This document shows, in pieces, positions 29,150-61,280 of a stretch of 64,000 nt of DNA. The translations under genes were made by a program, and so were the position numbers. The DNA is from Mesotaenium endlicherianum. Lineage: Eukaryota. Numbering within the stretch: position 1 is the first letter of the stretch; the number at the start of each line of letters is the position of its first letter. The notes below the pieces were generated by a model. That model was not told where the DNA came from. It searched no databases and saw nothing but the letters and a program-made list of their open reading frames with translations. The stretch lies in the NCBI GenBank assembly GCA_009602735.1, contig WELA01002777.1:89680-153679 (forward strand). Reading direction: 5' to 3'.

Positions 29150-29955
29150 TTAAGGGGTTGTTCCTGGGGCTTCAGGATCAGGAGACGGAGATCTGGACCT
29201 AGATCTGGACAGCCCTCTAGGTCTGTCAGCTGGCCTTCTAAAGAACCCTGTTTGCTCTAAAGTTGGACCTCGAGGAGAACAAAGGATGGTAGCCTGCTCT
29301 TCACCCACTTGGGTGTTGATCCCCACATAGACAGGCATTCCAGTAGGATGCTGAAATACATTGGCTAGAGGTACATGCCTCTGAGCGGAGGGGGGGGCCG
29401 GCATACCTCTGGCCCACCCGCGTGTCCCTCTTTTAGCACCCCTGTCCTCTGGGGATTTCTGCCTGTGTCTGCTGCCCAGTACAGTCAGATCAGCTTCTTC
29501 CCCTGCTTGGGCAGGTGGGCTGGGGGAGCGAGCGCGGGGTCCAGTTGTCGCCATAACGGGGATCACATTCCACACACCTGATCGTGGTTCTTTAGGAAGT
29601 GCCACTGCCTGTCCCTGGGTATCCTGAGTACCTGCTGCTGATGCTTCTCCTCTGCCTTGTTCTTCTTCCTCATCCTCCTCATCCTCCTCCTCGGAGAGAG
29701 TAGGGGTCTCGTCCACTAAGTCGTCCTGCTCCCTAGTAGACATGGAGTAGTCTACCGACCTCCCTTTCTTAGGGCGCGCTAGAGGTTGCTTGGCCTTCAG
29801 CCTGCTGATATCTATCCGGCCTGCATTCTTTGCCCATTTGACAAAGGCATGCTTTCCCTTAGAGAAGTACTCTCTTCCCCTCCTCCTATGTTCCTTGGTC
29901 TCTGCATTCATATTGCTCAGGCATCCATTCAGCCTGGGGTCCCAAGGGGCAATGT
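29150..29955 (-). pseudogene. C-terminal half of the family-A extra ORF (variant 1), copy A2
   Basis: IAPWDPRLNG...PEAPGTTP is nearly identical to 59608-60410. The 5' part is replaced by family-B LTR sequence. Confidence 0.9.
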
Positions 29956-39740: not shown

Positions 39741-39821
<81 letters not shown>

Positions 39822-39979
39822 GTATGCTAGCCTGTGTCTGACTGGCGGAGAGCCTGCCGTTTCCCGCCAACCCCCGAACGCTATCCCGCTACATGGCTTT
39901 CCGCCTGGTTTTCGACACTCTCATTATCCTGGTTCTTCATGTCTTGGGAGTTGCTAGTTTGAGACCTTGTCCTTACCAT
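38138..39979 (-). pseudogene. gag: Family-A gag disrupted by a stop, a deletion and a ~440-bp insertion, copy A3
   Basis: Pieces nearly identical to 53203-54681. Confidence 0.9.
39640..39815. repeat. (CT)n microsatellite spanning a short N-gap, inside the insertion in A3 gag
   Basis: Directly visible. Confidence 0.9.
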
Positions 39980-40837
39980 ACAAAGAAGACTGTGATAAGT
40001 GCTCCGATACCACTGAAATGAATCGACTTACCAAATAGGCGATTAACAATTAATAACGATCTTTATATCAGCAAGTAATCTTTATGGTATTTTTTGTTAA
40101 CTGGTTTAACGGCAAAGGACAACACACTAGCAGTATATAATATTCGTAAGTCAAATGCGAGGAAACTAGCATCAATAATGCAAATCAGTAAACTCATACA
40201 TAAGCAAGGTTAGAAGACAGTGCGCATCAATAGCTTCTCGCCTTGGATTCAGATCTCTCTCAGTATGCTGTACAAGAGAGTTGGCCTCGTTTCCGAATGC
40301 CAAACTCGAGAGCAATGCCTAGCATATGTACATGGAATGAGTTAACTGTTCAACGGCCTGTGCGATGGCACCGCCTACCCGGGAGTTAACCACGTTGGTA
40401 GGACCTCGGTTAACCAAATCCACCGCCATCTCCCATCATCCCGAATCGCCATCCATCATAGGGATGTCATCTGGCCATTCATCTAGCATACCACACTTAG
40501 ATGCATATCGAGGCAGTTCGCTGCTACCGAGTACGGAAGTCAGCTGGCTGTCAAAGAATGTGTCAGCAAGCTGACTTAAGGTGACCTCAGCCTGCTACTT
40601 CCGGCCAAGTCATTAAACTGATATTAAGTATAAAGTCGAGCAGACTGATAGTTAACTAGAGTTCAGCAGGCTAAATTTATTTGACTATATTATTTAAATG
40701 AATATTATATTGACCAGTATACTGATTCATTACACGGAGGGTCTATGTTTTGCATGCGGGAAGTCTGGGCATACATTCTCGACATGCCCTTCTGCAAAGG
40801 GGCCGAGATATGATCCCAAGGGGAAAGGCAAGGGGCC

Positions 40838-43800
40838 TTTAAAAGAGTAGCTCAGGAGCAAGTTGCAAAGCCTCCTTCTGAGCGGGTCACAACACTCCTT
40901 AGTGAGCAGGAAATTCTAGGTGCTTGTGCGCATGCACCCAAGGTTCTTGTTCTCTCAGGCATACCCGATATAAATATATTTCGTTCCAAATATATTGGTA
41001 TGCAAGTGTTGAGCTTTGCCGAGTTCTTGGAGCTCGAGTGCATCCATGCTTGCATTTTCTTGCACTTCCAACCGCATGACCCTAACGTTGAACGGTGTTA
41101 CGCACACTTATCTCGTTTACGGAAGATGCGCAAGTGTTTTGCACCAAATTATATTGCTGCATTTACACACAAACGCGAGAAGTCTGAGCCAATCACTCAG
41201 TTTCCCGCCGGTTTGGCAATGCAAAATGGCATTTTGGTAAAGAAACTCTATATTTCCCATTTTCCTCTCAAGGCGAGGACATTGCTCGTGATGCATAATG
41301 CTTCTTTGGCTTTAAGTATGACGTTTGAGATTCACATCTCGGGCCGGTCATGTCTCACTATCATTGATTCAGGAGCATCAAATAGCTTCATTAGTGCCCG
41401 ATTGGCGCTCGAAATGAAGTTGGTTCCCAGAAAGAAGGTTGAACAACTACGCCTTGGCGATGGTTCTTTAGCCAACATTACAGGAACAATCAAGTTACCG
41501 CTTAAGGTGCAGTCATACCATGGCAACAAAAAGTTCTACGTTACGAACTTGCCCGATGGTGTTGATGCAATTTTGGGTAACACTTCGCTTACGCAAACAA
41601 GGGCATTGTTGGACTACGGTCAACATACATGCATTGTTCGCAAGGGGGGTCACAAGATAACTCTTCGCCCCCTTGAGCCCGACATGGAGTTAGAAAGTCC
41701 TAAGAGGACTCTCCTTTTCTCCGTTAAGCAAGCTCGGCGCTTGGCAAAGCGAGGTCAAAATGTTTTCTACGGATTACTGAGCCAAGCACCCTCAGAGGTT
41801 TCCACTAAGTTCTTTACGGAAGAACCGATGTTAGAAATCCCTGATCATGTGGCGACACTCACAACGGAACTATCTGCTCTTTTGCAGAAGTATAAGTCTG
41901 TGTTCCCACCTGATATACCAGCCGGGTTACCACCTAATCGGGGTATAGGGCATACAATCCCTCTTGTTCCTGATGCTCAACCGACTTGGCGACCGATCTA
42001 TCGTTTAAGCCCGTTGGAGCTCCAGGAAATGAAGGACCAAATAATCGAGTTGCTAGCCAAAGGATGGATTGAGCCGAGCTCGTCTCCATTCGAGGCGCCC
42101 ATACTCTTTGTTCAAAAGAAAGATGGGACCCTACGTATGTGCATTGATTATCGTGCGTTGAACAATATTACGGTCAAGAACCGGTATTCGTACCTCGCAT
42201 TGATGATTTGTTTGATTCGTTGCAAGGAGCATGCGTGTTCTCCTCACTTGATCTAGCCCAAGGCTACCATCAAATTCGAATCACACCAGAGGATGTTCCC
42301 AAAACAGCGTTTCGGACGTTTATTGGTCACTTCCAATACAAAGCCCTTAGTTTTGGACTTACCAATGCACCGGCGACATTCCAAAGCACAATAAATGACG
42401 TGTTTAGACCGTACTTGGGTAAGTTCGTCCAGGTTTACCTCGACGATATCCTTGTCTATTCAAAGTCAGAGGCCGAGCACTACAAGCACCTCGAGTTGGT
42501 GTTGCAAATCCTCCGTGAGCAACAGCTGTACGCTAAGCTCAAAAAGTGTTCCTTTCTAAAGGATGAACTGTTGTACCTCGGACATATAGTGGGTTCGAAA
42601 GGGGTGCGCCCTGACCCAGCCAAGATTGCGTGTGTCGCGGATTGGCCAGTCCCGAAAGATGTACATACCGTCCGTTCATTCCTTGGGTTTGCAAATTACT
42701 TTCGTAAGTTTATGCAAGGCTATTCAGTGATGGCAGCGCCACTCACTGCTCTGACCAGGAAAGATGTGCCGTTCATTTGGAATGAAACCACACAACTTGC
42801 GTTTGAGCGCATTTCGTATGTCCTCACTCATGCGCCAGTTCTCTCATTAGCCAATCCCGACTTGCCTTACGAGGTAGTGGCGGATGCGTCTGGTGTTGGG
42901 ACCGGGGCTATCCTGTTGCAGGCAGGGAAGCCTATCAGTTTCGAGAGTCGAAAGCTGACCCCTGCCGAACAAAATTACTCTACAACAGAGCAGGAGCTCT
43001 GGGCAGTCATACATGCTTTAAAAATTTGGCGATGTTATTTGGAAGGGTGCAAGGGTTTGACAGTGGTTACGGATCACTGCCCAAATACCTTCTTTCAAAT
43101 TCAGCCAACGCTGTCAAGACGACAGACGAGATGGTCTAAGTTCTTACAACGATTCCGCTTTAACTGGGCGTATCGCCCTGGTCGCAACAATGTTGCGGAC
43201 CCTCTAAGTCGAATTCCTCAGCGTTACTTGCTGCTGGGGACCGTTGCGGGCGTTAAAGAACGAAATGGTCAGGTTTCGAGGGCGGCCACCCTTGATTCTG
43301 CTGTACCCCCCCAGACGTCCGACGTACAACCGCCTGGTGACGCGGGCACACCCGATTTGGATAGCGCGCATAACTCGAAATCACTTGACCTGCATCAACT
43401 GTTTCACGAGGGCTATCTCAAAGATCCGTTTTTCCTAGATCTCCAGGGTACTGGCTTGAACGGTGTAGCCGTAACGATGGACAGTATGGACAAAAGGAAT
43501 AACCGCTCAGACTATACATTTGAGCACGGTTTTTGGTGGCACAATGGGCGCATTGTGGTCTTAGAAGGCCGAGTAAGAAATGTGCTACTACGGGAAGCGC
43601 ATGACTCTCCTTACTCGGGCCATTATGGTATTACCAAAACCAGTCAAGCGTTGCACCGAGGGTACACGTGGCCGTCCCTCAAAGTTGATGTTGCTGAGTA
43701 CATCACCAACTGTGCGACTTGTCAGAGGAACAAGCCGAGCAATGCGTTGCCGGGTGGGAAGTTGCATCCCTTAGAACTTGCGGGTGCCCCGTGGGAAAGC

Positions 43801-44960
43801 ATAAGCCTTGACTTTGTCGTTGAATTGCCTACCACCAAAAGGGGACACAATGGGGTGTTAACGATCGTCGATCGTTTCACTAAGATGGTGCACTTTGTGC
43901 CCACTAAACCATCGCTTGATGCCATCGAGACCGCTCGTCTCTTTATGGATCACGTGTTCAAGTTACATGGTATGCCGAAAGAGATCATAAGTGATCGTGA
44001 TAGTAGATTTACGAGTCACTTCTGGCAGGAAGTTTGCTCGCATTTGGCACGAAACTTAAGATGTCGACCAGCTTCCATCCTCAGACCGATAGCCAGACAG
44101 AACAAATGAACCGCGTTCTTCAGCAATTCCTTAGGCATTATGTGAATCCTCGCCATGACAACTGGAATACCCTCCTTTCAGTTGCCGAGTTCGCCGTAAA
44201 TAATGCTTATTAGGAATCTGTTAAGGAAACTCCGTTTTTCCTTAACCATGGGAGACACCCGCACACTCCGCTGACGGTTGTCGTTTCCCGTCAGCTGGGG
44301 GTGCCTAACATGAGAGTACCAAGTGCACGCCAATTTGTCCACTCTCTTCAAGAGGTGCACAAACAAGCAAAGTTGGCTTTAGCAGCCGCCCGGGACCGGC
44401 AGAAAAAGTTTGCTGACACGCACAGGAAAGAGTTGAGTTTTGAGGTCGGCAATAAAGTACTTTTGCAGACTAAAAACTTGAAACTCCAGCACCCAGGAAA
44501 GCGCAAGCTTCTGCCTCGCTGGGTAGGCCCTTTTATCGTTAGCGCAAAGGTTGGACCTCTTGCCTACCGACTGGATTTGCCTAAATCTATGGGGCGGAGG
44601 CATCCTGTGTTCCATGTCAGTTTACTGAAGCTGTTCAGGTCTGATGGCCGCTATCAGCCACAAGCACCGGAATTGGAACTCGAACAAGATGACATAGCCT
44701 GGGATGTAGAGGAGGTCATTGGGCACCGCTACACCCGTCATAAGCCTCCACGCGTGGAACTTTTGATTAAGTGGCTCGACTACGATTCCAGTTGGAATTC
44801 GTATGAACCGCAGGACGAAATCCTACATAATTGTAGCGACCTGGTTCAACAGGATTGGTTACGATGGGTTGACGCTCAAAGGCTCTGCGCTAAGGCAAGT
44901 GTGCTACCAGGCGCTCTTTGTACACCAAAGAACAAACGCAAAAGGGACGCGGCCAAGTAA
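40838..44960 (+). pseudogene. pol: Family-B pol (PR, RT, RNase H, integrase, chromodomain) with frameshifts and a stop
   Basis: IIDSGAS, YLDD, ADAS, HDSPYSGH...C.TCQR, ISDRD, WDVEEVIGHR...LIKWLDY. Broken at about 42190, 44045 and 44210. Confidence 0.9.
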
Positions 44961-45099
44961 TCGCTCTTTTTCGTCACTGTTCGCTGCAATCGCCCTTCGC
45001 TTGGACTGTGTTTCACGCTCGCTACGGGCAAGTATTAACACAGAATACTTAAAAGACAATGCTTAACGCGGACGTTAAGTTCTTTTAAGGGGGGAGGAG

Positions 45100-46097
45100 T
45101 GTAACCATCTGAGCTTTTTAGGCGTATTTAGAACGTTTTTCTAATTACCTAAAAGACGTTATACTTCTATTTTGTATAAGATTGCATGGTTATCGAATTA
45201 TTTCGACACACACGTGTGCCGACTAATTCCCGGTCGATTGGCGAAACGACTCGAATACTATTGCAAAAAGAATCGTAAAGTAATTCGATTACTTCGCAAA
45301 AGTATAACGTAATTAATCACAAAGTAATTCGATTAATTATGGCGGAATAACTTAATCAATTATGGATTGATTAATTTATTCTGACTGTCACTATTTCGGA
45401 TATTAGCAGTCATTGTTTTCGGTTAACGACGCGTCGCTAACCCGAAAGAAAACACCGAGTTGTGGCCCGGTCGGAATCGAACCCGCGACCTCCCGGTTGT
45501 CGCGTCGCGACTCCGAAAATCGTCGTAAAGTTAAACGAAGCGTCGTAAAGTTAAACGAAGCATAATATGCAAAGTTACTTTGCATTTCGGCAGATTCAAA
45601 CCCGCGACCTTTCGTTTAAAACGTTCACACCTAACCGATTGGCCAAAGTAGTTTTTATAACTATTGGTTCATGTCAAATCAATCTGTACGCGACCGCGCG
45701 AGCAGTCGCGACTTTTTCAAAAGTCGCGCGGACGAGAAAACGCCCGTTTGGCGTATAACGGTTTTTCGGAAACCGTCGAAAAGTCTCCTAAAAGCCAAAC
45801 GGCGCGCTAGGAGCATTCGGCCGAATTGGTTGTCTCCAATTCAACCGTTTTTCGTTGAACATGAACCAGTGCCCTAGGTGGTGACTCGAAGCACTCCAGT
45901 GCCTCACGTTGTGCAAGTATATATACTTGCAAGAGTCATTGTGAGTGCAACTCTCACAAGCACAAATTCTATTAGTTTACATTTTCGCTTTCACAAGGAT
46001 TGTGCATTTTCTCAAAGTTAACGTTATTTCTTTCTGCTAATATTAAATTATCCTTGAATACCGAGCAAAGATCCTCGTGGAAAGCAGAAACGTTACA
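45100..46097 (+). repeat. Family-B 3' LTR (998 bp)
   Basis: Follows the PPT, has inverted TGTAAC/GTTACA ends, and its 3' part is homologous to 29956-30383. Confidence 0.9.
45463..45650 (-). other. Two tRNA-derived (Pol III A/B-box) segments inside the family-B LTR
   Basis: Minus strand: TGGCCAATCGGTTAGG...AAGGTCGCGGGTTTGAATC (45646-45590) and GAGGTCGCGGGTTCGATTCCGACCGGGCCA (to 45463), then TTTT. Cloverleafs are incomplete. Confidence 0.6.
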
Positions 46098-47372
46098 CAG
46101 TTGCAAGAACTCCGGACAGCTGCTCTTGTCGCTCATACCAAGCTCCAGCACTCTTCTTCAGCAAAGTAATCACGAAGGCGACTTGGCGTGAGCGTAGAAT
46201 ACTCCATAAACTTCTTCACTCCAAAAATCCATTGATGAACAGGCGGCGATCCACGCTCTCCAGTATAAACTTCAGGCTTAGGCGCACGCACTCCCGATGC
46301 GGGTGGAATAACTGGCTGCACCACTGGGTTAACATGAATTGGTGGTACAACAGGGTCAGGTGCCGAAGTCGTCGAAGCGGCGTTCCCCATAACAACTCGC
46401 ACCATTCTCTCCACCTCCTCGCGCATATTTTGTTGAAACTGTGTATAGACTTCTCCTCCAATTACGTTTGCCATCTGCCTCAACATCGCTTGCATCTCTT
46501 GTTGCTCCCTTGACAAAGGTGGTGCCGTCTGCTCCACGCGCTCAACATGCTCGACATATTCGCCTCCTCCAGTTGCCGACTGCGACTCCATAATAAAATA
46601 TGCAAACTAGCCCAGCTCCGATACCAGATGAAAGGGGCAAAGTGCCCTAGTGGAAGTGTAGTAACTCACGAGGAAAGGAACTAGTTGCAATCATACTAAA
46701 GAGTGCAACGGCATATCACTAACAAAGCTTAGGAAAAATACTCAACATTTTGAGTAGCAAGAAACTGCTCACAAATGATGTAGGATGGAAGGCCTTGTCA
46801 TTACAAACCAGTAGAAATTTACAGAAGTGAAAACTGATGAGAAACAAAGAAGTTATGCCTATTTATAATTTTCTGCCTAAGTGCTCCTCCCTCGCAGGAA
46901 GCTACGGATTTTCGTAAGTGTTCGTCAAATCGTCCCTTCCAGAATATTCGTGAGTAAGCCAGATCAGTCTAATCTGACGTGTTGGGTTGAATTGACGTCC
47001 ACATACATGCATCGACATTACAAGAATATTCTATCTTAGACGCGCTAGGCTAAACCGAAACTTATAGGTAAATCGACCTAGTCGGCACTCCGCGTCAGTC
47101 GAACTTACGTGAAGGTTCAAGTTCACACTAACAGGCCAGATCGCTCGACGCTGTCGGTCAATCCGACAGCCACGCTCACCGCAAATTAAGGACAGTCGTC
47201 AACCGACCACAAAACTTATTAAACTTCGGAAATCCATAACTCTCTCAATACTTGACCAAATTCGATGAACTTTATATCAAAATGACCACAAAAATGCATT
47301 CTACACTATTGTACAATCAAAACATACTTTCATGAAACTCAAAAATGCACTTTATAAACCTATGACCTTACA
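46098..47372 (-). mobile_element. Family-D LTR retrotransposon fragment: 5' LTR 46629-47372, PBS 46615-46626, gag start 46591
   Basis: Minus strand TGTAAGG...CCTTTCA, TGGTATCGGAGC, and Gag-like PKPEVYTGER....VHQW then LLKKSAGAWY after a frameshift. Cut by B2 at 46098. Confidence 0.8.
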
Positions 47373-50300
47373 GTCTGGGTAACTGAAATCACTTCAGGCA
47401 GGCTGAAGTTGGTCATTCCTAATAACTTAGAAATAAGGTCACTCTTACTGAGTCAAGCACAAGACAATGTACTTGGTGGACATTTGGGGCAGGCCAAAAT
47501 TGTTGGCAAATTAGCAAAACATTATCGTTGGGATGGGTTGCCTCCGGAGGTCTTAAAATATGTTAAGTCTTGTGATCATTGTCAAAAAAGTAAGTCTCGA
47601 CACACACCACCCGGGGGGCTAATACAACCACTACCCATCCTAGCTAGACGCTGGGAGACAATATCCATGGACTGGGTGGTAACACTACCAAGAACGGCCA
47701 ATGGGCATGATTCTATACTGGTAGTTGTGGATAAACTGACAAAAATGGTCATTTTCATCCCCATCATTGTCAAAGTAACTGCCCTCACACTGCGAGACAA
47801 TTTTACAACGATGTGGTATGCCATCATGGGCTACCCTCTAATATTATCTCAAACAGAGACTCAAAATTTACCTCTAAGTTCTGGAGAGCTTTAATGGGGT
47901 TAATGGGGTCAAACAGCTGCTCAGCACAGCAAACCACCCTCAGACTGATGGGCGGACTGAAAGAACTAACCAAGTTCCGCAGGAGGTGCTGAGAGCATAT
48001 GGTAACCAAAAACAAGATACTTGGGATGACCTGTTGCCTCAAATTCAGATTGCAGTCAATAATGCGGTGCACGCGTCAACGGGAAAGACCCTTTTTGAAC
48101 TCAATCTAGGTAGGGTCTCTAAGTCTCCACTGGATGTGCTAGGGGAGTCTTTAACTCATCCTGAGGGAATTGACAATCCGGTGTCTCTCCCGTAAACTCA
48201 GGAATTTGATGACACCCTGTCAGAAGTCCAACACAACCTGCACAAAACCCAGGAACATCAACAAAAAAACGCTAATCAACACCGTTGGGAGCTGACATTT
48301 TCAAAGGGCGATTTGGTCAAACTGCATTCTCAACACCTGTACCTGCCTGGTGTGGCCAAGAAAAAGCTTGGTCGTGTCTGGGTCGGTCCATATTCGGTGG
48401 TGCGCCGTGTCGATCAGAATGCTTACAAATTGAACATGTCAGCGGAATACAAGGGTCACCCAGTCTTTATTGTCTCCTTCCTGGAACCATACATCAAGGG
48501 TGACACACTGTTCACTAGTCGGTTACCTGTCCAACCGGGATTGGTTTCCGCTGTCAGGGATGGTGACCCTGAGGAATATAAGGTCGAAGAAATTTTGGAA
48601 GCTCGCTCTGTCCGTCGATCATCTAAATATGTCACGAAATACCTGGTCAAATGGAAGGTTTGCGATGCCTCTGGGGATACTTGGGAATTTAAGGACCATA
48701 TGATCAATGCCAAAGGGGCGTTGAAACAGTTCCACCTTCGGGCGGTCGGGGCACCTCCCTTACTGTCATTTCAGTTGACATGGGAAGGTGACAGGAGGTC
48801 CTATCTCCATTTAAGTTGGAGGGGAAATGTGCCAGTAAATGACAGTTAGTGTGCCAGAAAGGGACAATTATTGACAGTTAAGTGTCAGCGTAGTGACAAT
48901 TGGGACAGCCGGGCCCACATTAAGCAAAGTTGGCGGAATGAAAAAGGGACTCGCACATCAACACATCACTAAACTCACCCTGCACACACATTCATTATTT
49001 TTCATTGCACTACAGCTACGTTAACTCCTAGTAACCACCCCGTAAGGTAAACAGGAAAAAACCTACCATAATAATACAAACTGCTTCTCTTCTTGAAACT
49101 CCTGTGACAAAGAGATCCTACTAACTTGTGCCCTGGTTACATGTGCAGCATGACTCCTACCACACAAAAGGAAGATAGGAAGCTCAAGGCAGAAGAAGCC
49201 AGGAGGACGATGGAGCAATACCAGAAAGAGCTGGCGGCAACGTACCTCACCAGGATAGAACAAGAAAGGGTCCGCAGACAACAAGAGGCAGCAGAGGAAG
49301 CACAGAGGAAGAAGGAGCAGGAGGCGAAAATCTCAGGAAAGCTGAAGAGGAGAGACAGAAGAAATAACAAGAAGCAGCAGCGGCAGCTGAGGAGAAGAGA
49401 AGGAAGAAGGTTGAAGCTGAGAAGCAGAAGAGCCTGGCCACTTACAGATATACTGTGGTGGGTGGCCAAACCTTTGACAACCTGAAAGAGGCATTATTGG
49501 CTTCCCAGGAGATCAACAAGGTGGAACAGAAAACAATGTTACAAAGAGAAGGACCTGAAGCGCTGGATAAGTACATTGAGACACACACTGGTGTGGTCCT
49601 CTACGAAGATTATGCCAAGATGGTGGGCTATACAGCAGGGTAAGCTCGGTATCTTGCAGCTGATTTGGAGAACAAGCCTGTTCTAGTACCTGGAATAGTG
49701 GGAGATCAGAGATTTATCAGGTTGGTGAGCATGCAGCCCGATAGCTTTAAGGATACGGTATTTTATCTGACACTACTGCCAGCTTACAATGAAGTTGAGC
49801 GGAGGAGTTGGGGGTACCTAGCCAGGGAAACAGGGCAGCAGATGTTCTCTCCCCACTGGTTTCCTTGTAAGCTGAAAAAGGCTGAGCATTGGCCACAGTA
49901 CTACTAGCAGCGCACAGACTGGAGGTGGATGACCGTCTCTAACAAAAAGCAGGAGTGTGACCGAGCCCAACCAGATGACTTCCTCTATGGGCTAGACGGC
50001 TACCTCATCCTACCACCTCACATTGCCCCTTGGGACCCTAGGTTGAATGGATGCCTGAGTAATATGAATGCGGAGACCAAAGAGCACAGGAGGAGGGGCA
50101 ACGACTATTTCTCTAAGGGGAAGCATGCCCTTGTCAAATGGGTGAAAAATGCAGGCCGGATAAATATCAGCAGTCTGAAGGCCAAGCAACCTCCAGCTCG
50201 TCCTATGAAAGGGCGGTCAGTAGATTTTTCCATGTCTACCAGGGAGCAGGATGACTTAGTGGACGAGACCCCTACCCTCTCTGAGGAGGAAGATCAGGAG

Positions 50301-51465
50301 GATGAGGAAGAAGAACAAGGCAGAGGAGAAGCATCAGGAGCTGGTACTCAAGAGACCCAGGGGCACGCAGAAGCAGGGACTCCTAGGGCGCCAAGATCAG
50401 GTGTATGGAATGTGATCCCTGTCATGGAGGCAACAGGACCTCGCACTCGTTCCCCCAGCCCACCTGCCCAAGCAGGGAAAGAAGCTGATTTGACTGTTCT
50501 TGGCAGCAGAAAAAGGCAGAAATCCCCAGAGGACAGGGGTACAAGAAGAACAACGCGCGGAGTAGCCAGAGGTATGCTGGCCACCCCCTTCAGTCAAGGA
50601 CATGTGCCTCTTGCCAATGTATTTTAGCATCCTACCGGAATGCCTGTTTATGTGGGTATCAACACCCAGGTGGTTAAAGAGCAGGCTACAATCCTTCGTT
50701 CTCCTTGAGACCCAACTTTAGAGCAAACAGGGTTCTTTAGAAGGCCAGCTGACAGACCTAGAGGGCTGTCCAGGTCTAGGTCCAGATCTCAGTCCCCTGA
50801 TCCTAGAGCTCCAGGAACAACCCCCTAAACATCAAAATCATCCTCCAGTCAAGCCTTGCTGGAGGTCTCTCTGTTTGCCCCCCACAACGGAAGTGGACTG
50901 AGGGTGGAGGTGACAGTTTATTGTCACTAGTGATCCCCACAGCTAGGCAACTGTGTTAAAGCAAGAGGCAGGCGGTGGGGGGTTAGTACTATTAGTTCCC
51001 TGACCAAATAATTTTACAATGTAATGTTGTCAAGGCGACAACAATTTAAGTTGGAGAAATTGTAAAGAATCAATATATTTGTAGATATTATATTCATTTG
51101 TATATAGTGGTTAAATAATTTTAGCTTGCTAAACTTTAGTTAATATTTAGTCTGCTGGACTTTACATAATTACCAGATTAATGACTCAACCGAGAGCAAC
51201 AGGCTGAAGTCAACTTAGGTCAGCTTGCTGACACATTCTTTGACAGCCAGCTGACTTCCGTACTCAGTAGCAGCGAACTGCCTAGATATGCATCTAACTG
51301 TGATATGCTAGATGAATGGCCAGATGACATCCTTGGGATGGATGGCGATTCAAAATGATGGGAGATGGCGGTGGATTTGGTTAACCGAGGTTCTACCAAC
51401 GTGGTTAACTCCCAAGTAGGCGGTGCCATCGCACTTGCCGTTGAACAGTAAACTCATTCCTTGTA
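47373..51465 (+). mobile_element. Older family-A 3' half: integrase-chromodomain relic, extra ORF relic, PPT, truncated 3' LTR (51061-~51465)
   Basis: Colinear with 57075-60960, with many stops and frameshifts. Confidence 0.9.
49150..50828 (+). pseudogene. Family-A extra ORF (variant 1 type), pseudogenised
   Basis: MTPTTQKEDRK... through ...PGTTP with a frameshift and several stops. Confidence 0.9.
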
Positions 51466-52449: not shown

Positions 52450-53168
52450 TGTAATGAATCAGTATATTAAAGGATATAATATTCATTTAAATATAATAGT
52501 TAATTAAGTTCAGCCTGCTGAACTTTAGTTAATAGTCAGTCTGCTGGACTTTACATAATTATCAGTTTAATGACTCAGCCAGAAGCAGCAAGCTGAAGTC
52601 CATATAAGTCAGCTTGCTGACCCATTCTTTGACAGCCAGCTGACTTCCGTACTTGGTAGCAGCGAACTGCCTTGATATGCATCTAAGTGCGATATGCTAG
52701 ATGAATAGCCAGATGACATCCCTATGATGGATGGCTATTCGGGATGATGGGAGATGGCGGTGGATTTGGTTAACCGAGGTCCTACCAACGTGGTTAACTC
52801 CCGGGTAGGCGGTGCCATCGCACTGACCGTTGAACAGTAAACTCATTCCATGTACATATGCTAGGCATTGCTCTCGAGTTCGGCATTCGGAAACGAGGCC
52901 AACTCTCTTGTACAGCTTACTGAGAGAGATCTGAATCCAAGGCGAGAAGCCATTGATACGCACTGTCTTCTAACCTTGCTTATGTATGAGTTTACTGATT
53001 TGCATCATTGATGCTAGTTTACTCGCATTTGACTTACGAGTATTATTCCCTGCTAGTGTATTGTCCTTTGCCGTTTAACTAGTTAACGGAAATACCATAA
53101 AGATTACTTGCTGATATAAAGATCTTTATTAATTGTTAATCGCCTATTTGGTAAGTCGATTCATTTCA
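52450..53168 (+). repeat. A4 5' LTR (719 bp)
   Basis: Direct repeat of 60524-61267, followed by the PBS. Confidence 0.95.
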
Positions 53169-53202
53169 GTGGTATCGGAGCAGTTATCACAGTCTTCTTT
53201 GT

Positions 53203-54681
53203 ATGGTAAGGACAAGGTCTCAAACTAGCAACTCCCGAGACATGGAGAACCAGGATAACGAGAATGTCGAAAACCAGGCGGAAAGCCATGTAGCGGGAAA
53301 CCGTACCTATTCGGAAGCAGTAGCGGATACTGCAGCTAGGGAGGCAGCAGATGAGGCAGCTGCTATTGCCTCAGTCGCAGCTCAGCAAGCTGAGGAGGAG
53401 ATAGCCAGACTAGAAGCTGAACAAGTAGCAAAGGCCGCTGAAGATATACAAAGGAGGGAAGGACAGCCAGCTGACGAGCGCACTGTTGAAGAACTTATGG
53501 CATCAAGGGCCAATGTTCTGAACCCACCTCCTGCCGTACAACTCAATGTACCCCTAGGTCAAATACGTGACCGGCTGAATGCGGCAGGAATTGCTGCTGC
53601 AGGAGCAAGAGGGATTGTTGAGGACACTACTCAGCGAGTAGATGCCAATGCTGCTGCTGCATTTGCTAATCTACCACCCCAAAATGTAGACTTGGGAGCA
53701 TTGTTCGTTCAGATGCAGTCGCAAATGGCGACCATGTATCAGTCCCAGCAGGAGGACAAAAGAATCATAATGTCCCTACTCCGGGACAGAGACCAACTGG
53801 GGTCTCACACCACTAGTGGTGGTGGCCGAGGGCCTAGTAAGCCCAAGCCGAAACCTCCCCAGGACTATGATCCTGAGGGAAACAGAAAATATTACCTGAT
53901 CAAGTTTCTCGCGGATGTTGAGCAGTGGCTGGAGAACTACCCAGAACTGCAAGATTACGAGAAGGTCAGGCACACCGGTGCGCTACTGAAAGGCAGTGCC
54001 GCAGACTGGTGGCTTTACTGGAAGGAAGAGCGTAAGGCTCGGCAACTCGGTGACCCTACGTGGGTAGAGTTTGTCGAGAAGTTGCATGAGAAGTTTGATG
54101 TCATCAACCAGCAAGAGAAAGCTATCTATGCGATGATCTCCCTGACACTGAAGCAGACCACTTCAGTTGCTGAGTTTGCTCAAGAGTTCCAAGAGAACAT
54201 GATGAAGCAGCCTGATTTGCCAGAACGGTATAGGATAGCATACTTCAGGTATGGCTTGAAATTCGAAGTCTCTGGTCATTTCACTGAGAAAAAGTATGAG
54301 AAACTGGCTGACTTGATCCAGGATGCTGACGCCTGGGATCAGCAGCAGTTCAATCACAAGCGCCAGAGTAACGCTTTGGTGTCTAAGATTGTCAAAAAGC
54401 CCCACGGTTCCTACAATGCAGTTGAAGGAGACCAGGCTGAGGATAATCAGGGTGATGAATATGAGTATGAGTACAATGCTATTCAGTCTAGAGGTAGAGG
54501 TGGTCCCTCTCGAGGTGGCTATGGAAGGGGTGGTGGTAGGACTAAGCCGAGACCAGCCTCAGCAAAATCTACTTGCTACCATTGTCAGCAGAAAGGCCAC
54601 TACAGAGAACAGTGTCCGGTCAAGCACCTGCCTAAGGTCGAGAGAAAAGACCAGCCTTTAAAAGACAGCAACAGTCAGTAA
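53203..54681 (+). CDS. gag: Gag (492 aa), copy A4
   Basis: Retrotrans_gag-like core and zinc knuckle [14 protein letters not shown]. Confidence 0.95.
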
Positions 54682-54698
54682 TCCAGTCTACTGACTGT
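54657..54698 (+). promoter_or_regulatory. Predicted -1 ribosomal frameshift signal
   Basis: T_TTA_AAA in the gag frame, 7-nt spacer, perfect 10-bp stem ACAGTCAGTA/TACTGACTGT. pol is open in the -1 frame. Confidence 0.8.
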
Positions 54699-57600
54699 GA
54701 GGATGCTAGAGATAGTGAGTCGTCACTAGCTGCCCTCGTAGCAGGTATTATGGGTCCTGCTGAACTGGATTCACTATGCATGCCTGACAAACAGATAAAG
54801 GAGACCATCAGTAATATAGACGTCCAGAGAGTGCACACTCTGGATGCTCTTGTTCCACCTGATGTCCAACATTTCTTTGCTACGTCAGGAGAACAATGCG
54901 AAAGTCAGGAAAAGACAGTCCCCCCTATCCTACTGCATTGCATGATTGCAGGTAGGAAGGTGAGGGCATTTGTTGACGGAGGGGCGTCACATACTTTTAT
55001 TCACAAGGACTTAGTTAAGCGGCTAAGGCTGCCTACTGTCATCCAAGGGAATAGACAAATATTCCTTGGAGATGCCTCAAGTATCACGGGAGGAGTTATA
55101 ACCAAGCCTATTGAGGTCCAGTTAGGTTCTGGCATTGCAGTTCTAACTGAAACGCTTACATTTGAGGTACTCAACACTGGCTTTTATGATCTCGTGCTAA
55201 GCAGGTCCTGGCTTAATAGACATAAAGCTGAAGTGTGTTGGAGCAGAGGTACAGTTAAAGTGAGAGGAGCCAGTGATGGGCAGACTGACTTGGCACCCAC
55301 CAGTGCTCTTCCTCTTGTCCTGTGTGGATGGCAAATGAAGGAAAAGAAGAGGCTTCCAGAAGGATGCAAGTTGCTGAATGCAATGGAGTTCGTCAAAAGC
55401 TGGAACCAGAAGGAAGACAGAATGTTCTGTCTGCTGCTAAGAGAGGTACCTCCTCAACCTGAAGAAGTGGTTGAGAAAAAGGTAAGCCCTCCGGAGCACC
55501 CTACTGCTGCAAAAATTGTTGCTCAGTACACTGATGTGTTTAACATGCCTCCAGGACTACCCCCTAAAAGGGAAGTAGATCATAGGATTGATCTATTACC
55601 TGGTAGCCAGCCACCCTGGCAACGCACTTATGGCTTGTCTTATTTGGAGAGCGAGGAGTTGAAAACACAGATTGCAGAGCTGGAGGAAAATGGTTACATT
55701 TCTCCCAGTAAATCACCGTACGGCGCACCTATCCTATTTGTTAAGAAAAAGGATGGCAGTATGCGGATGTGTGTGGATTACAGAGCCCTGAACAGAATTA
55801 CAGTAAAGAACAAGTATGCTTTACCCAGAATCGAGGACTTGCTTGATACCCTGTCTGGCGCTAAGGTGTTCAGTAAGATAGATCTCAAGAGTGGTTATCA
55901 TCAAATCAGAATTGCTGAGGGGGATGAACACAAGACTGCTTTCCGCACACGTTATGGACACTATGAGTTCAACGTGATGCCATTTGGACTGACTAATGCT
56001 CCTGCTACCTTTATGGGTGCTATGAATGACATTTTCAGACCTTATTTGGATAAGTTTGTGCAAGTTTTCCTGGATGATATTTTAATTTTCTCTAAAGATG
56101 AAGCTCAGCACACTGAACACTTAAAGGAAGTGCTGGACACTCTGCGGAAAAATCACTTGTATGCTAAAATGAGCGAGTGTGATTTCTTTAAAGAAAGTAT
56201 TGAATTCTTAGGCCACGTTGTCAGTTAAGAGGGCATCAGTGTGGATCCTAAGAAAGTCCAGACCATAAGGGACTGGCCAGTACCACAGTCTGTCTCTGAA
56301 GTTAGATCCTTCCTCGGGTTGGCTAACGACTATAGGAGATTTATTGAGAATTATTCCACAAAGGCCAGTAAACTGACTGACCTTACTAAGAAAGACATCG
56401 GGTATGTGTGGGGGGAAGAGCAGCAGGCTGCCTTCCAGACCCTTAAAGATGCCCTTTGTTCTGCCCCAGTGCTAGCCGTGTATGACCCCAGCAAACCGGT
56501 GCAGGTGGTTACTGATGCCTCTGATTTTGCCATGGGTGCTATTTTGTCGCAGCCTGCTGACAAAACCACAAAGGATGGTAAGGTACGGCAGGAGTGGCAT
56601 CCTGTGTTGTATGAGTCTATGAAATTTAATCCAGCGGAGATTAATTACTCAGTGCATGATAAAGAGCTGCTAGCTATCATTCATGTACTCAAACAGTGGA
56701 GAGCATACTTACATGGTAAAGCTTTTAAGGTGATTACAGATCATCTAGCTCTGACCCACTTTCAGAAGAAGTCCAAGCTGTCGAGGAGGGAGAACCGCTG
56801 GAGCCAGATGCTGGAGCAGTTCCAAGTCCAAATCGACTACAAACCAGGGAAGTTGAATCCTGCTGATGCACTCTCTAGAAGACCTGACTTGCAAGAAAGG
56901 AACTTTAGTCAGCATGCTGTAGATAAAGTCCTGTGTGCACTCACTTCACTAAAGGTGAAAAAGTCCTTCCTTGAACAACTTAGGAAAGCCTACCTTTCTG
57001 ACCCAACATTTGAGCCCAGCCCCACTACTGGTGTGTGTCGTGCTACTGCACTCGGGTATAAGCTTAAGGGAGGGGTCTGGGTGACTGAAACCACTTCAGG
57101 CAGGCTGAAGCTGGTCATTCCTAATAACTTGGAAATAAGGTCTCTCTTACTGAGTCAAGCTCATGACAGTCTCCTGGGTGGACATTTGGGGCAGGCCAAA
57201 ACTGTTGGCAAACTGGCAAAACATTATCATTGGGAGGGGTTACCCCGGGAGGTCTTGAAATATGTCAAGTCCTGTGACCAGTGTCAGAGAAATAAGTCTC
57301 GGCACACACCACCCGGAGGTCTCTTGCAACCGCTACCCATCCCAGCGGGACGCTGGGAAACTATATCCATGGACTGGGTGGTCTCACTACCAAGAACTGC
57401 CAACGGGCATGATTCAATACTGGTAGTCGTGGATAAACTGACAAAAATGGTCATTTTTATCCCCACAACTGTCAAAGTGACTGCACTCGAAACAGCGAGA
57501 CAGTTTTACAACCATGTAGTATGCCAACATGGGCTCCCTTCTAATATCATCTCAGACAGAGACTCAAAATTCACCTCTAAGTTCTGGAGAGCTTTAATGG

Positions 57601-58466
57601 GGTTAATGGGAGTCAAACAGCTGCTCAGCACAGCAAACCACCCTCAGACTGATGGGCAGACTGAAAGAACTAACCGAGTTCTGCAGGAGGTGCTGAGAGC
57701 ATATATTAACCAAAAACAAGATAATAGGGATGACCTGTTGCCTCAAATTCAGTTTGCGGTCAACAGTGAGGTGCACGCGTCAACGGGCAAAACTCCTTTT
57801 GAACTCAGCCTGGGTAGAGTCCCTAAGTCTCCTCTATATGTGCTAGGGGAATCTTCAACTCACCCTGAAGGGATTGACAACCCGGTCTCCCTCCAGTTAA
57901 TTCAGGAGTTTGCTGACACCCTGTCAGAAGTCCAACGAAACTTGCACACGGCCCAAGAAAACCAACAAAAATACGCTAATCAACACCGTCGGGAACTGAC
58001 ATTTTCCAAGGGGGATTTAGTCAAACTGCATTCTCAGCACCTGTACCTCCCTGGTGTGGTCAAGAAAAAGCTTGGCCCTGTCTGGGTCGGTCCATATTCG
58101 GTGGTCCGTCGTGTCGGTCAGAATGCTTACAAACTGAACATGTCAGCTGAATACAAGGGGCACCCGGTCTTTAATGTCTCCTTCCTGGAACCGTACATCA
58201 AAGGTGATACACTGTTCACAGGTCGGTTCCCTGTCCAACCGGGACCGGTCCCCGCTGTCCGGGACGGCGACCCTGAGGAATATGAGGTCGATGAGATTTT
58301 AGACGCTCGCTCGGTCCGTCGATCGTCTAAATATGTCATGAAATACCTCATTCGATGGAAGGGTTACGATGCCTCTGGGGACACTTGGGAGTTTAAGGAC
58401 CACTTGACCAATGCCAAAGGGGCGTTGACACGGTTCCACCTTCGGGCCGCTGGAGTCCCTCCATAA
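54657..58466 (+). pseudogene. pol: Pol (PR-RT-RNase H-INT-chromodomain) with a single premature TAA at 56226-56228, copy A4
   Basis: All domain motifs are present. Copy A3 has AAA (VSKEGIS) at the stop position. Confidence 0.92.
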
Positions 58467-58733
58467 CTGTCATTTCAGTTGACACGGGAAGGTGACAGGC
58501 GGTCCTGTCTCCATTTAAGTTGGAGGGGAAAATATATGACAGTTAGTGAGCGAGAGCGATAAAAACACACTCATACGTTTATGTGTAGCGCATCGCAACT
58601 ACGTCAACTTTTAGCAATCATCCTGTAAGGTAAACAGCAGCGAAGCCACTATACTAAATACTAACATACTTCCTGCAATCCCTATGACAAAGGTCCATAT
58701 CCTACTAACTTGTGCCCTGGTTACATGTGCAGG

Positions 58734-60410
58734 ATGGCGCCCACCACACAAAAGGAGGACAGAAAGCGCAAGGCAGAAGAAGCCAGGAGGACAATGGAGC
58801 AATACCAGAAGGAGCTGGCGGCGACGTCCCTCACCAGGAGAGAACAAGAAAGGGTCCGCAAACAACAAGAGGCGGCAGAAGAGGCACAGAGGAAGAAGGA
58901 TCAGGAAGCGGAAAACCTCAGGAAGGCTGAGGAGGAGAGACAGAAGAAACAGCAAGAAGAAGCGGCAGCGGCAGAAGAGGAGAAAAGAAAAAAGATTGAA
59001 GCGGACAGACAGAAGAGCTTGGCCACTTACAGGTATACTGTGGTGGGTGGCCAAAACTTCGATAACCTGAAGGAAGCATTGCTGGCAGCCCAGGAGATCA
59101 ACAGGCTGGAACAGACAACACTGCTACAGAAGGAAGGAGCTACAGCACTGGACAGGTACATCGAGACACACACCGGCGTGGTCCTTTACGAAGATTATGC
59201 TAAGATGGTGGGCTATACAGCAGAGCAGGCCCGGTATCTCGCAGATGATTCAGAGGACAAGCCGGTCCCCATACCGGGAATAGTGGGAGATCAGAGACTC
59301 ATCCGGATGGTGAGCATGCGGCCCGATAGCTTTAAGGATACGGTATTCTACCTCACACTCCTGCCAGCTTACAATGAAGTTGAGAGAAGGAGCTGGGAGT
59401 ACTTGGCCAGGGAAGCAGGACAGCAGATGTTCTCTCCCCACTGGTTCCCGTGTAAACTGAGGAAGGCTGAGCACGGACCCCAGTACTACCAGCAGCCAAC
59501 AGACTGGAGGTGGATGACCGTCACAAATAAGAAGCAGGAGTGTGACCGAGCCCAACCGGATGACTTCCACTATGGCCTAGACGGCTATCTCATCCTACCA
59601 CCTCACATTGCCCCTTGGGACCCCAGGCTGAATGGATGCCTGAGCAATATGAATGCAGAGACCAAGGAACATAGGAGGAGGGGAAGAGACTACTTCTCTA
59701 AGGGAAAGCATGCCTTTGTCAAATGGGCAAAGAATGCAGGCCGGATAGATATCAGTAGGCTGAAGGCCAAGCAACCTCCAGCGCGCCCTAAGAAAGGGAG
59801 GTCGGTAGACTACTCCATGTCTACTAGGGAGCAGGACGACTTAGTGGACGAGACCCCTACTCTCTCCGAGGAGGAGGATGAGGAGGATGAGGAAGAAGAA
59901 CAAGGCAGAGGAGAAGCATCAGCAGCAGGTACTCAGGATACCCAGCGACAGGCAGTGGCACTTCCTAAAGAACCACGATCAGGTGTGTGGAATGTGATCC
60001 CCGTTATGGCGACAACTGGACCCCGCGCTCGCTCCCCCAGCCCACCTGCCCAAGCAGGGGAAGAAGCTGATCTGACTGTACTGGGCAGCAGACACAGACA
60101 GAAATCCCCAGAGGACAGGGGTGCCAGAAGAGGGACACGCGGGTGGGCCAGAGGTATGCCAGCCTCCCCCTCCGCTCAGGGGCATGTACCTCTAGCCAAT
60201 GTATTTCAGCATCCTACTGGAATGCCTGTCTATGTGGGCATCAACACCCAAGTGGTTGAAGAGCAGGCTACCATCCTTCGTTCTCCTCGAGGTCCAACTT
60301 TAGAGCAAACCGGGTTCTTTAGAAGGCCAGCTGACAGACCTAGAGGGCTGTCCAGATCTAGGTCCAGATCTCCGTCCCCTGATCCTGAAGCCCCAGGAAC
60401 CACCCCTTAA
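58734..60410 (+). CDS. Family-A extra 3' ORF, variant 1 (558 aa from MAPTTQKED), function unknown
   Basis: Uninterrupted ORF between pol and the PPT. Charged coiled-coil-like N-terminus, aromatic-rich core, acidic tract, RS/SP-rich tail. Homologues in three other copies. Confidence 0.88.
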   Translation: MAPTTQKEDRKRKAEEARRTMEQYQKELAATSLTRREQERVRKQQEAAEEAQRKKDQEAENLRKAEEERQKKQQEEAAAAEEEKRKKIEADRQKSLATYRYTVVGGQNFDNLKEALLAAQEINRLEQTTLLQKEGATALDRYIETHTGVVLYEDYAKMVGYTAEQARYLADDSEDKPVPIPGIVGDQRLIRMVSMRPDSFKDTVFYLTLLPAYNEVERRSWEYLAREAGQQMFSPHWFPCKLRKAEHGPQYYQQPTDWRWMTVTNKKQECDRAQPDDFHYGLDGYLILPPHIAPWDPRLNGCLSNMNAETKEHRRRGRDYFSKGKHAFVKWAKNAGRIDISRLKAKQPPARPKKGRSVDYSMSTREQDDLVDETPTLSEEEDEEDEEEEQGRGEASAAGTQDTQRQAVALPKEPRSGVWNVIPVMATTGPRARSPSPPAQAGEEADLTVLGSRHRQKSPEDRGARRGTRGWARGMPASPSAQGHVPLANVFQHPTGMPVYVGINTQVVEEQATILRSPRGPTLEQTGFFRRPADRPRGLSRSRSRSPSPDPEAPGTTP

Positions 60411-60523
60411 GGTGACAGGCTGAAAAGATAGTCAGTAAGGGAGGCTGGTCAGGGTCAGTTTCTTTATTTAAAGCTTTTGCAGTTTAATGTTGTCGAGGCG
60501 ACAACAAGTTAAGTTGGAGGGAT

Positions 60524-61267
60524 TGTAATGAATCAGTATATTAGTAGATATAATATTCATTTAAATATAATAGTTAATTTAGTTCAGCCTGCTGAACTTT
60601 AGTTAGTAGTCAGTCTGCTGAACTTTAGTTAATAATCAGTCTGCTGGACTTTACATAATTATCAGTTTAATGACTCGGCCAAAAGCAGCAGGCTGAAGTC
60701 AACTTAAGTCAGCTTGCTGACACATTCTTTGACAGCCAGCTGACTTCCGTACTCGGTAGCAGCGAACTGCCTTGATATGCATCTAAGTGCGATATGCTAG
60801 ATGAATGGCCAGATGACATCCCTATGATGGATGGCTATTCGGGATGATGGGAGATGGCGGTGGATTTGGTTAACCGAGGTCCTACCAACGTGGTTAACTC
60901 CCGGGTAGGCGGTGCCATCGCACTGACCGTTGAACAGTAAACTCATTCCATGTACATATGCTAGGCATTGCTCTCGAGTTCGGCATTCGGAAACGAGGCC
61001 AACTCTCTTGTACAGCTTACTGAGAGAACTCTGAATCCAAGGCGAGAAGCCATTGATACGCACTGTCTTCTAACCTTGCTTATGTATGAGTTTACTGATT
61101 TGCATCATTGATGCTAGTTTACTCGCATTTGACTTACGAGTATTATTCCCTGCTAGTGTATTGTCCTTTGCCGTTTAACTAGTTAACGGAAATACCATAA
61201 GATTACTTGCTGATATAAAGATCTTTATTAATTGTTAATCGCCTATTTGGTAAGTCGATTCATTTCA
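60524..61267 (+). repeat. A4 3' LTR (744 bp, includes a 26-bp tandem duplication)
   Basis: Follows the PPT and ends in CA plus the TSD. Confidence 0.95.
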
Positions 61268-61280
61268 TATCTAGTGTTAA

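What the first reader, a model, noticed from the sequence alone, without database searches (positions are those of the whole stretch)
58467..60523. Chromovirus with an unassigned ~550-aa extra ORF between pol and the 3' LTR
Seen: after the pol stop, family A carries a long sense ORF, present in four copies (58734-60410, 32395-34032, 49150-50828, 29150-29955). It has a K/E/Q/R coiled-coil-like N-terminus, a ~250-aa conserved core (YNEVERRSWE.LARE, HW.PC, WRWMT, LPPH.A.WDPRL, FSKGKHA..KW), an acidic tract, a second conserved block (GHVPLA.V.QHP.GMPVYV) and an RS/SP tail. No signal peptide or transmembrane stretch is visible. Known: extra 3' ORFs are typical of Athila, Tat/Retand, SIRE and errantiviruses, not of chromodomain-bearing lineages. 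Inference: a soluble, probably nuclear accessory protein (anti-silencing, RNA handling or targeting) defining an undescribed element type.
Basis: partly seen in the sequence, partly recalled or inferred. Interest (0 to 1): 0.9.

Follow-up and report, generated by a model that had tools for sequence, protein, structure and literature searches.

The report
Swappable orphan third gene in chromovirus
A plant-lineage jumping gene carries a real, conserved third gene with no known relatives, present in two very different versions on nearly identical backbones, and likely read from its own spliced message to make a nuclear helper protein; extra genes in such elements are known, this one is not.

Summary
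The ORF is real. A complete Ty3/gypsy chromovirus (52450-61267, 5-bp target duplication) carries a 558-codon sense ORF between pol and the 3' LTR. It is under purifying selection (dN/dS 0.13, integrase control 0.18) and has no significant match in any library searched. Of four copies only two are intact.

New here: (1) two ORF versions, 48% identical and saturated at silent sites, sit on pol/LTR backbones that are about 94% identical, so the module has been exchanged by recombination; (2) the module lies between two copies of the polypurine-tract motif; (3) all three copies with a 5' end have a 102-108-nt GT-AG intron-like unit ending one base before the ATG, behind a TGACA(G) cluster.

Three polyA RNA runs show no reads on the focal ORF and no splice joint. 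The structure models were unusable, so function is inferred: a soluble nuclear accessory protein, most likely a trans-acting regulator that helps the element's expression.

REXdb lists 3' sense extra ORFs in 18% of Tekay chromoviruses, and fungal gypsy elements with extra ORFs are described. Verdict: new variant of a known kind.

The parts
52450..53168 (+). 5' LTR of focal element A1 (TG...CA, 719 nt); target-site duplication TATCT at 52445-52449 and 61268-61272
   Evidence: the two LTRs differ at 16 of 718 aligned sites, K2P 0.023
53170..53181 (+). Primer-binding site, tRNA-Met-like (label from recalled consensus)
   Evidence: sequence
53203..54681 (+). gag (Ty3 capsid, CCHC knuckle)
   Evidence: Pfam PF19259, PF03732; PF00098 just under its cut-off
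54636..58466 (+). pol (PR-RT-RH-IN-SH3-chromodomain), overlapping gag in the -1 frame; one premature stop at 56226-56228; chromodomain about 58281-58439 with the three aromatic cage positions occupied
58494..58531 (+). Internal polypurine-tract motif right after pol, sharing 11 nt exactly with the terminal one and preceded by a short inverted repeat; left border of the exchanged module
   Evidence: the minimum-energy fold here pairs the tract itself rather than the short inverted repeat
58467..58629 (+). TGACA(G) motif cluster, candidate internal promoter/enhancer of the third ORF (inferred)
   Evidence: 4 TGACA against 0.54 expected; post hoc
58630..58732 (+). Predicted 103-nt leader intron (AAG|GTAAAC donor, CTAAC branch, GCAG acceptor one base before the ATG); splicing not observed
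58734..60410 (+). Third ORF, version 1 (558 aa): basic NLS-like start, charged helix about 9-93, conserved core about 95-350, acidic tract, second conserved block, SP-rich tail
60488..60523 (+). Hairpin plus terminal polypurine tract; right border of the exchanged module
60524..61267 (+). 3' LTR of A1 (744 nt)
32395..34032 (-). Third ORF, version 2 (545 aa, intact) in copy A2; predicted 108-nt leader intron at 34034-34141; 3' LTR at 31536-32244; pol from about 34384 upward, about 94% identical to A1
49150..50828 (+). Third ORF, version 1, broken copy A3 (1 frameshift, 5 stops); predicted 102-nt leader intron at 49047-49148
29150..29955 (-). 3' half of the third ORF, version 1, truncated copy A4 (LTR 28317-29036)
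40735..46098 (+). Comparison: a second chromovirus family (B) whose hairpin, polypurine tract and 3' LTR follow pol directly, with no third ORF

Best explanation
A chromovirus retrotransposon carries a selected third gene in two exchanged versions between two polypurine-tract motifs; the gene is likely read from its own spliced message and likely makes a nuclear protein that helps the element to be expressed. Shown: the element's anatomy; purifying selection on the ORF; two versions with a genealogy discordant from pol and LTR; no membrane segment; no homologue in the collections searched. Inferred step 1: a promoter in the spacer after pol (or the 5' LTR) gives a subgenomic RNA, and removal of a roughly 105-nt leader intron takes out the nearest upstream ATGs, while the full-length genomic RNA keeps the intron. 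Inferred step 2: the protein (basic NLS-like runs, a charged helix as spacer, a 250-aa conserved core, a basic P-K-x-G-R motif, an acidic tract, an SP-rich tail) acts in trans in the nucleus, most likely as a transactivator or anti-silencing factor for its own family. Inferred step 3: template switching during reverse transcription at the two conserved tract blocks swaps the module between co-packaged relatives.
For: dN/dS 0.13 over the ORF, 0.075-0.22 in each of four segments, against 0.18 for integrase. A2's ORF is open for 545 codons although the A1/A2 pol comparison has 7 codons with a stop and 12 with gaps. Three-way sites: integrase 126 A1=A2 vs 47 A1=A3; ORF 78 vs 571; 3' LTR 29 vs 11; Fisher p 3e-54 and 6e-17. 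Identity to A2 drops from 0.83-0.99 to 0.36-0.70 just after the first tract and recovers at the second tract and LTR. Contigs of run X6 join an A1-like pol end to the A2-type spacer (loose end at 58528), and X6 and X14 hold several diverged version-2 contigs, so A2 is unlikely to be an assembly chimera. The donor-branch-acceptor-ATG pattern occurs 3 times in 64 kb on both strands, all three at these ORF starts; shuffle mean 0.08; per-spacer chance 6-8e-5. Splicing of sense extra ORFs is described for Bagy2 (review text). Nuclear localisation is reported for Grande GENE23 and predicted for Tekay 5' aORFs.
Against: No expression seen: depth 0 in all five bins 58684-60203 in 3 of 3 polyA runs (6-12% of each run read), and no GT-AG joint listed. 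Version 2 has at most trace depth in 2 of 2 runs, while the neighbouring host gene's 3' end is covered at depth 8-41. The whole family looks nearly silent in those samples, so this neither shows nor excludes the intron. The splice pattern was defined after seeing the sequences, and A1 and A3 are not independent. A well-formed sense intron should be lost in retrotransposition unless retention is regulated, which is unexplained. The function has no direct support: both AlphaFold models had pLDDT 34-37. Only one window and no genome were available.
Confidence: 0.5

Rival explanations
1. The gene is real, but its product handles RNA or particles: it would keep the intron-containing genomic RNA unspliced, export it, or chaperone its packaging, like retroviral Rev/Rex.
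For: The predicted sense intron is kept in 3 of 3 copies that retain the 5' end, which needs a retention mechanism. The protein has basic runs, and version 1 has an RS-rich tail.
Against: The RS run is absent in version 2. No RNA-binding domain in Pfam. Family B, in the same window, has no such gene.
Confidence: 0.22
2. The module is a selfish passenger (a captured host gene or the remnant of a non-autonomous element) that is selected for its own spread or for competition among copies, for example exclusion or toxin/antidote-like effects between the two versions, rather than for helping gag-pol.
For: The module starts right after the ancestral tract position (family B has its tract there) with a TG dinucleotide in A2 and A3, as an old LTR would, and ends with its own tract. 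The two versions recombine independently of pol.
Against: The spacers match no LTR in the window. No cellular homologue among 1.84 billion representatives. No copy of the module without family-A context was seen in the window, though A4 is truncated.
Confidence: 0.15
3. It is a highly diverged env-like or movement protein for cell-to-cell spread, expressed from an LTR-spliced RNA.
For: Env-like position and orientation, a splice acceptor before the ATG, and a perfect donor-like G|GTAAGT near the end of the LTR at 53148.
Against: No transmembrane or signal segment (maximum hydropathy 0.73-0.80), only 2-3 cysteines, and no Pfam env or movement family.
Confidence: 0.06
4. It is an integration-targeting cofactor that works with the chromo-integrase, the two versions steering insertion to different chromatin.
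For: NLS-like and basic DNA-binding-like motifs. Sunflower Tekay group 2, which has a 5' aORF, inserts differently from the groups without one (passages).
Against: No test here. Family-A copies of both versions lie nested among other elements in the same cluster.
Confidence: 0.07

Closest known systems
Tekay chromoviruses with extra ORFs (REXdb, PMC6317226 Additional file 5; sunflower Tekay 5' aORF, PMC11728184)
   Same: Chromodomain-bearing Ty3/gypsy with a tRNA-Met PBS, 5-bp TSD and an extra ORF; 18% of Tekay elements have a 3' sense eORF. The Tekay 5' aORF protein is predicted nuclear, helical and partly disordered. Sugar-beet Bongo3 (Tekay) has an additional PPT right after the chromodomain (PMC3605345).
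   Different: This element falls outside the fully supported angiosperm clade in RT and integrase trees, keeps the aromatic-cage chromodomain, and has overlapping gag/pol. REXdb lists no eORFs for Chlamyvir, Tcn1, Galadriel, Reina, CRM or unclassified chromoviruses. Tekay eORF sequences could not be compared directly (REXdb files 1 and 3 too large to read).
Sense additional ORFs between pol and 3' LTR (aORF-3S/env-like of Athila, Bagy2, SIRE; review PMC7264820)
   Same: Same position and orientation; splicing is reported for Bagy2; highly heterogeneous orphan proteins.
   Different: Those hosts are non-chromoviruses or copia elements, and some of their proteins have transmembrane segments. This protein has none and matches neither PF03078, PF04195 nor PF10536.
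Fungal gypsy elements with 'add. ORF' of unknown function (PMC2864245)
   Same: Gypsy elements from a chromovirus survey drawn with an additional ORF (figure legend only). Locus L044 is a further chromodomain element with a 648-aa sense ORF after pol.
   Different: Different host kingdom; no similarity between L044's ORF and this one (hhalign probability 0.07).
Bdelloid LTR retrotransposons with modular ORF3s (PMC5408684)
   Same: Family-specific ORF3s gained and lost as modules, stated to be expressed from spliced messages (passages).
   Different: No chromodomain in those lineages, and many of those ORF3s have recognisable enzyme or fusion folds.
Foamy-virus internal promoter and accessory genes; VANDAL VANC anti-silencing proteins (both recalled, not from a call)
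   Same: Works-like analogies: a second purine tract and an internal spliced unit for a trans-acting regulator; an element-encoded factor that counters silencing of its own family.
   Different: No sequence relation shown; analogy only.

Membership tests
Ty3/gypsy chromovirus | TG...CA LTRs, 5-bp TSD, PBS, PPT | tested here: met
Ty3/gypsy chromovirus | gag-PR-RT-RH-IN order with a C-terminal chromodomain | tested here: met
   Pfam, (Chromo E 1e-8)
Ty3/gypsy chromovirus | RT groups with reference chromovirus clades | tested here: inconclusive
   No REXdb references were available. The closest RTs (68-71%) are unnamed proteins, several with a chromodomain; grouping support only 84/71
Tekay | RT/IN within the seed-plant clade | tested here: not met
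   Outside the 100/100 angiosperm clade in the RT tree and the 100 clade in the integrase tree; that these rows are Tekay is inferred, not labelled
Tekay | Chromodomain without the aromatic cage (cage limited to non-seed plants per PMC6317226) | tested here: not met
   Tyr, Trp and Tyr are present at the three positions (criteria)
Tcn1 | Mostly self-priming, no tRNA PBS (83%) | tested here: not met
   tRNA-Met-like PBS at 53170; 5% of Tcn1 have one
Tcn1 | Overlapping gag/pol frames and aromatic cage | tested here: met
Tcn1 / Chlamyvir | Phylogenetic membership | not testable with these tools
   reference sequences not readable
Chlamyvir | gag and pol separated by a single stop (80%) | tested here: not met
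   -1 overlap at 54636-54681
env-like aORF-3S | Sense ORF between pol and 3' LTR | tested here: met
env-like aORF-3S | Transmembrane or signal segment | tested here: not met
   maximum 19-residue hydropathy 0.73 and 0.80
env-like aORF-3S | Spliced subgenomic mRNA | tested here: inconclusive
   Signals conserved; no reads and no joint in 3 polyA runs
Known plant eORF families (Athila ORF1 PF03078, Transposase_28 PF04195, plant mobile domain PF10536) | Profile match | tested here: not met
   No such hit at E up to 0.1 or up to 10

The most novel reading that the evidence does not exclude
An early-branching plant chromovirus has evolved a complex-retrovirus-like, exchangeable accessory cassette. 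It has its own promoter with clustered TGACA(G) sites, the KNOX-type motif, which would switch it on in the zygote, a retained leader intron, and a protein of a new fold that counters host silencing. Two ancient alleles are kept and shuffled onto the same gag-pol backbone by plus-strand recombination at duplicated polypurine tracts, in an arms race with the host.
Probability: 0.12. Interest if true: 0.85.

Novelty: new variant of a known kind. Interest (0 to 1): 0.52.

Why it matters
What the thousands of extra ORFs in plant LTR retrotransposons do is an open question, and REXdb asks whether they have any function at all. This case gives clear selection evidence, a predicted expression route, and a natural experiment: two alleles 48% identical on backbones about 94% identical, so insertion sites, methylation and copy success can be compared within one genome. 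It extends 3' sense accessory genes to a non-Tekay, aromatic-cage chromovirus of a streptophyte, and suggests duplicated polypurine tracts as borders of an exchangeable module. The 250-aa core is an orphan domain worth a structure.

Tried and rejected
No whole genome is held, so genome-wide copy counts and a host-paralogue search were not possible.

Homology searches with no significant hit:
- 5.8-billion collection with the full protein: 0 of 7992 candidates; with the two-sequence core alignment: 0 of 4875 at E up to 0.1. Only 'near' lengths were searched.
- 1.84 billion representatives: 0.
- Pfam: sub-threshold hits only (Borrelia_P83 on the charged helix, Obc1_C E 0.008).
- PHROGs best E 0.25; PDB sequences best E 0.12.
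- Core alignment against metagenome contigs: 0 of 142 stretches; against viral contigs: 0 of 69.
- 92 loci with related integrases: none matches the ORF. 37 of the 92 had at least 1.5 kb downstream, and one of those (L044) has an unrelated large sense ORF that is not a recognisable gag, pol or other retroelement/host gene.

ESM Atlas gave no answer. AlphaFold models had pLDDT 34.5 and 36.5; the Foldseek run on the first gave nothing below E 0.2 and is uninformative. No RNA holder was listed in the run index; this is not used as evidence.

Rejected: chance ORF (dN/dS); env (no TM); assembly chimera as the cause of version 2 (31536-38951 is gap-free and independent contigs show the junction); spacer derived from an LTR of the window. 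Splicing from the U5 donor stays possible but has no support. In the tree two rows (P0123, P0125) were mislabelled Tanacetum by my default label; they are unnamed records.

Paper searches for a prior description of this element found none: and with 0 papers. The library lacks most subscription journals, including Steinbauerova 2011, which I did not see. REXdb Additional files 1 and 3 could not be read and may hold related eORFs.

Full report
Setting. The window is eukaryotic. A BES1/BZR1 N-terminal domain at 17831-18049 (Pfam E 1e-34) makes the host a streptophyte. The aromatic-cage chromodomain and the trees below point to a non-seed lineage (inference; PMC6317226 section 9 limits the cage to non-seed plants). 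No whole genome is held. From about 22 kb onward the window is a nest of LTR retrotransposons.

The element. A1 spans 52450-61267, with TG...CA LTRs of 719 and 744 nt (K2P 0.023), a TATCT target duplication and a tRNA-Met-like PBS. Gag is followed by pol in the -1 frame, with PR, RT, RH, IN, SH3 and a chromodomain; pol has one premature stop. After pol comes a 558-codon sense ORF (58734-60410). tblastn finds four copies in the window: A1 and A2 (545 aa, minus strand) are intact, A3 has one frameshift and five stops, and A4 is a 3' half. A second chromovirus family B (40735-46098) goes straight from pol to hairpin, polypurine tract and LTR, with no extra ORF.

It is a gene. Nei-Gojobori counts on copies as they stand, skipping codons with stops or gaps: A1 vs A3 dS 0.48, dN 0.064, ratio 0.133 (0.10-0.18). 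The ratio is 0.075, 0.12, 0.17 and 0.22 in four successive segments. The integrase control from the same pair gives 0.182. A1 vs A4 gives 0.32 (0.11-0.88, 16 changes). A1 vs A2 is saturated at silent sites, with 48% amino-acid identity over 508 aligned codons.

It is an orphan. No significant match was found in Pfam, PHROGs, PDB sequences, the 5.8-billion collection (0 of 7992 and 0 of 4875 candidates), 1.84 billion representatives, or metagenome and viral contigs (0 of 142 and 0 of 69). None of 92 loci with related integrases encodes it; 37 of them had at least 1.5 kb downstream. Two AlphaFold jobs gave pLDDT 34.5 and 36.5, so the fold is unknown. The protein has no hydrophobic segment. Both versions share a basic run at residues 8-13, a P-K-x-G-R motif before an acidic tract, ten SP/TP sites, and an E/K/R/Q/A-rich N-terminus like a charged single helix. 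The RS run is in version 1 only.

Two versions, one backbone. A2's pol is about 94% identical to A1's (dS 0.13) and its 3' LTR is at K2P 0.04-0.05, yet its ORF is saturated. A3 is more distant in integrase (dS 0.38) but carries the A1-type ORF (dS 0.48). Three-way informative sites flip from A1=A2 in integrase (126 vs 47) to A1=A3 in the ORF (571 vs 78) and back in the LTR (29 vs 11); p 3e-54 and 6e-17. The switch points lie just after an internal polypurine-tract motif behind pol and just before the hairpin and terminal tract. The 11-mer core of the tract occurs 7 times in the window, all at these borders or in A2's spacer. An assembly artefact is unlikely. The stretch holding A2's LTR, ORF and most of pol has no gap. 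A contig of run X6 continues from the pol end into the A2-type spacer, and runs X6 and X14 hold further version-2 contigs with 10-50 differences. In X6, contig depth was mostly 32-49 on pol (up to 77 in some bins), 29 on version 1 and 9-20 on version 2. That fits two versions sharing one family, but the tool warns that depth is not copy number. A2's far LTR lies beyond an assembly gap and no TSD is seen, so A2 may not be one insertion.

Expression route. The spacers of versions 1 and 2 do not align, yet all three copies with a 5' end carry AG|GTA, then a CTAAC branch-like site, then a GCAG acceptor exactly one base before the ATG, giving units of 103, 108 and 102 nt. The full pattern occurs only at these three places in the window (shuffle mean 0.08; per-spacer chance 6-8e-5). 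It was defined after inspection, and A1 and A3 are related, so A2 is the only semi-independent test. The nearest upstream ATGs lie inside the unit. Upstream of it, TGACA is clustered (4, 4 and 7 against 0.5-1.0 expected), and the A3 and A1 clusters are the two densest in the window; this too is post hoc. TGACAGC is cited as the KNOX binding motif (one passage of PMC6624237), and KNOX/BELL activate the zygote programme in green plants (abstract in search listing, PMC8478417). A zygote-specific promoter is speculation.

RNA. In three polyA runs of the same species label, 223, 339 and 212 reads lay on the element, sparse and largely from diverged copies. Depth on 58684-60203 was zero in all three and no GT-AG joint was listed. 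Version 2 had trace depth at most in 2 of 2 runs, while the host gene's 3' end had depth 8-41 on the expected strand. The ORF is therefore not detectably expressed in those samples, and the intron is untested.

Placement. In an RT tree of 43 rows (all labelled hits with a near-complete RT plus 14 others, out of 112) and an integrase tree of 36 rows, A1 lies outside the fully supported angiosperm clade, unresolved among algal and unnamed sequences. It mixes Tcn1-like traits (overlap, cage) with a tRNA-Met PBS, so I do not assign it to a named clade.

Known context. REXdb Additional file 5 (read whole) lists eORF-3'F in 18% of Tekay and none in the other chromovirus clades; Additional file 4 (read whole) lists the eORF domains, none of which matches. 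Beet Bongo3 has an additional PPT after the chromodomain (passages, PMC3605345). Fungal elements with an 'add. ORF' appear in a figure legend of PMC2864245. The review PMC7264820 was read in parts 1-2 of 3. PMC11728184, PMC5408684, PMC3350952, PMC2533021 and PMC9289625 were seen as passages only. Earlier scan notes report similar third ORFs in chromoviruses of other genomes, several fungal, while none resembles this sequence.

Verdict. A real, selected orphan accessory gene; the architecture has precedent, but the protein family, the lineage and the two-allele exchange between duplicated tracts were not found in print by my searches. Most likely it is a separately expressed nuclear trans-regulator (0.5), with RNA handling (0.22) and selfish passenger (0.15) as the main rivals. 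Interest 0.52.

Noticed in passing
window 17831-18049 and about 19110-20321 (+): Host gene with a BES1/BZR1 N-terminal domain and a long poly-Q C-terminal exon; its 3' end is expressed in both RNA runs laid.
   Followed up: partly
window about 600-6980 (+): Short exons of a host gene that look like the C-terminal part of a strawberry-notch-like protein (recalled resemblance, not tested).
   Followed up: no
run X6 on window 20230-34400: Contig run X6 holds family A at high depth, with near-identical version-1 contigs (2 differences in 1475 nt), but nothing on the unique host DNA 20230-23540 or the repeat at 22122-23067, and carries a different organism code. Unexplained: enrichment, filtering or a shared element in another organism.
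   Followed up: no
L044:3906-5852 (+): Metagenome contig with a chromodomain gypsy pol followed about 165 nt later by a 648-aa sense ORF with no Pfam hit, unrelated to this ORF.
   Followed up: partly
window 63192-64000 (-): Broken orphan reading frames with acidic and proline-rich repeats running off the window end; no Pfam hit for the 108-aa piece tested. Could be an extra ORF of another element.
   Followed up: no
window 39448-39877: About 430-nt insert with CT repeats and an assembly gap inside A2's gag; A2's two ends have no matching TSD.
   Followed up: partly
window 54650-54681 (+): gag/pol overlap with a T-TTA-AAA heptamer, a candidate -1 frameshift site (sequence; motif type recalled).
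   Followed up: no
window 25280-31535 and 40735-46098: Family-A copies are nested in other family-A and family-B copies (A4 inside A5's pol; A2 between family-B pieces), as expected of heterochromatin-targeting chromoviruses.
   Followed up: partly
P0122: An unnamed related pol has about 130 extra residues fused after the chromodomain.
   Followed up: no
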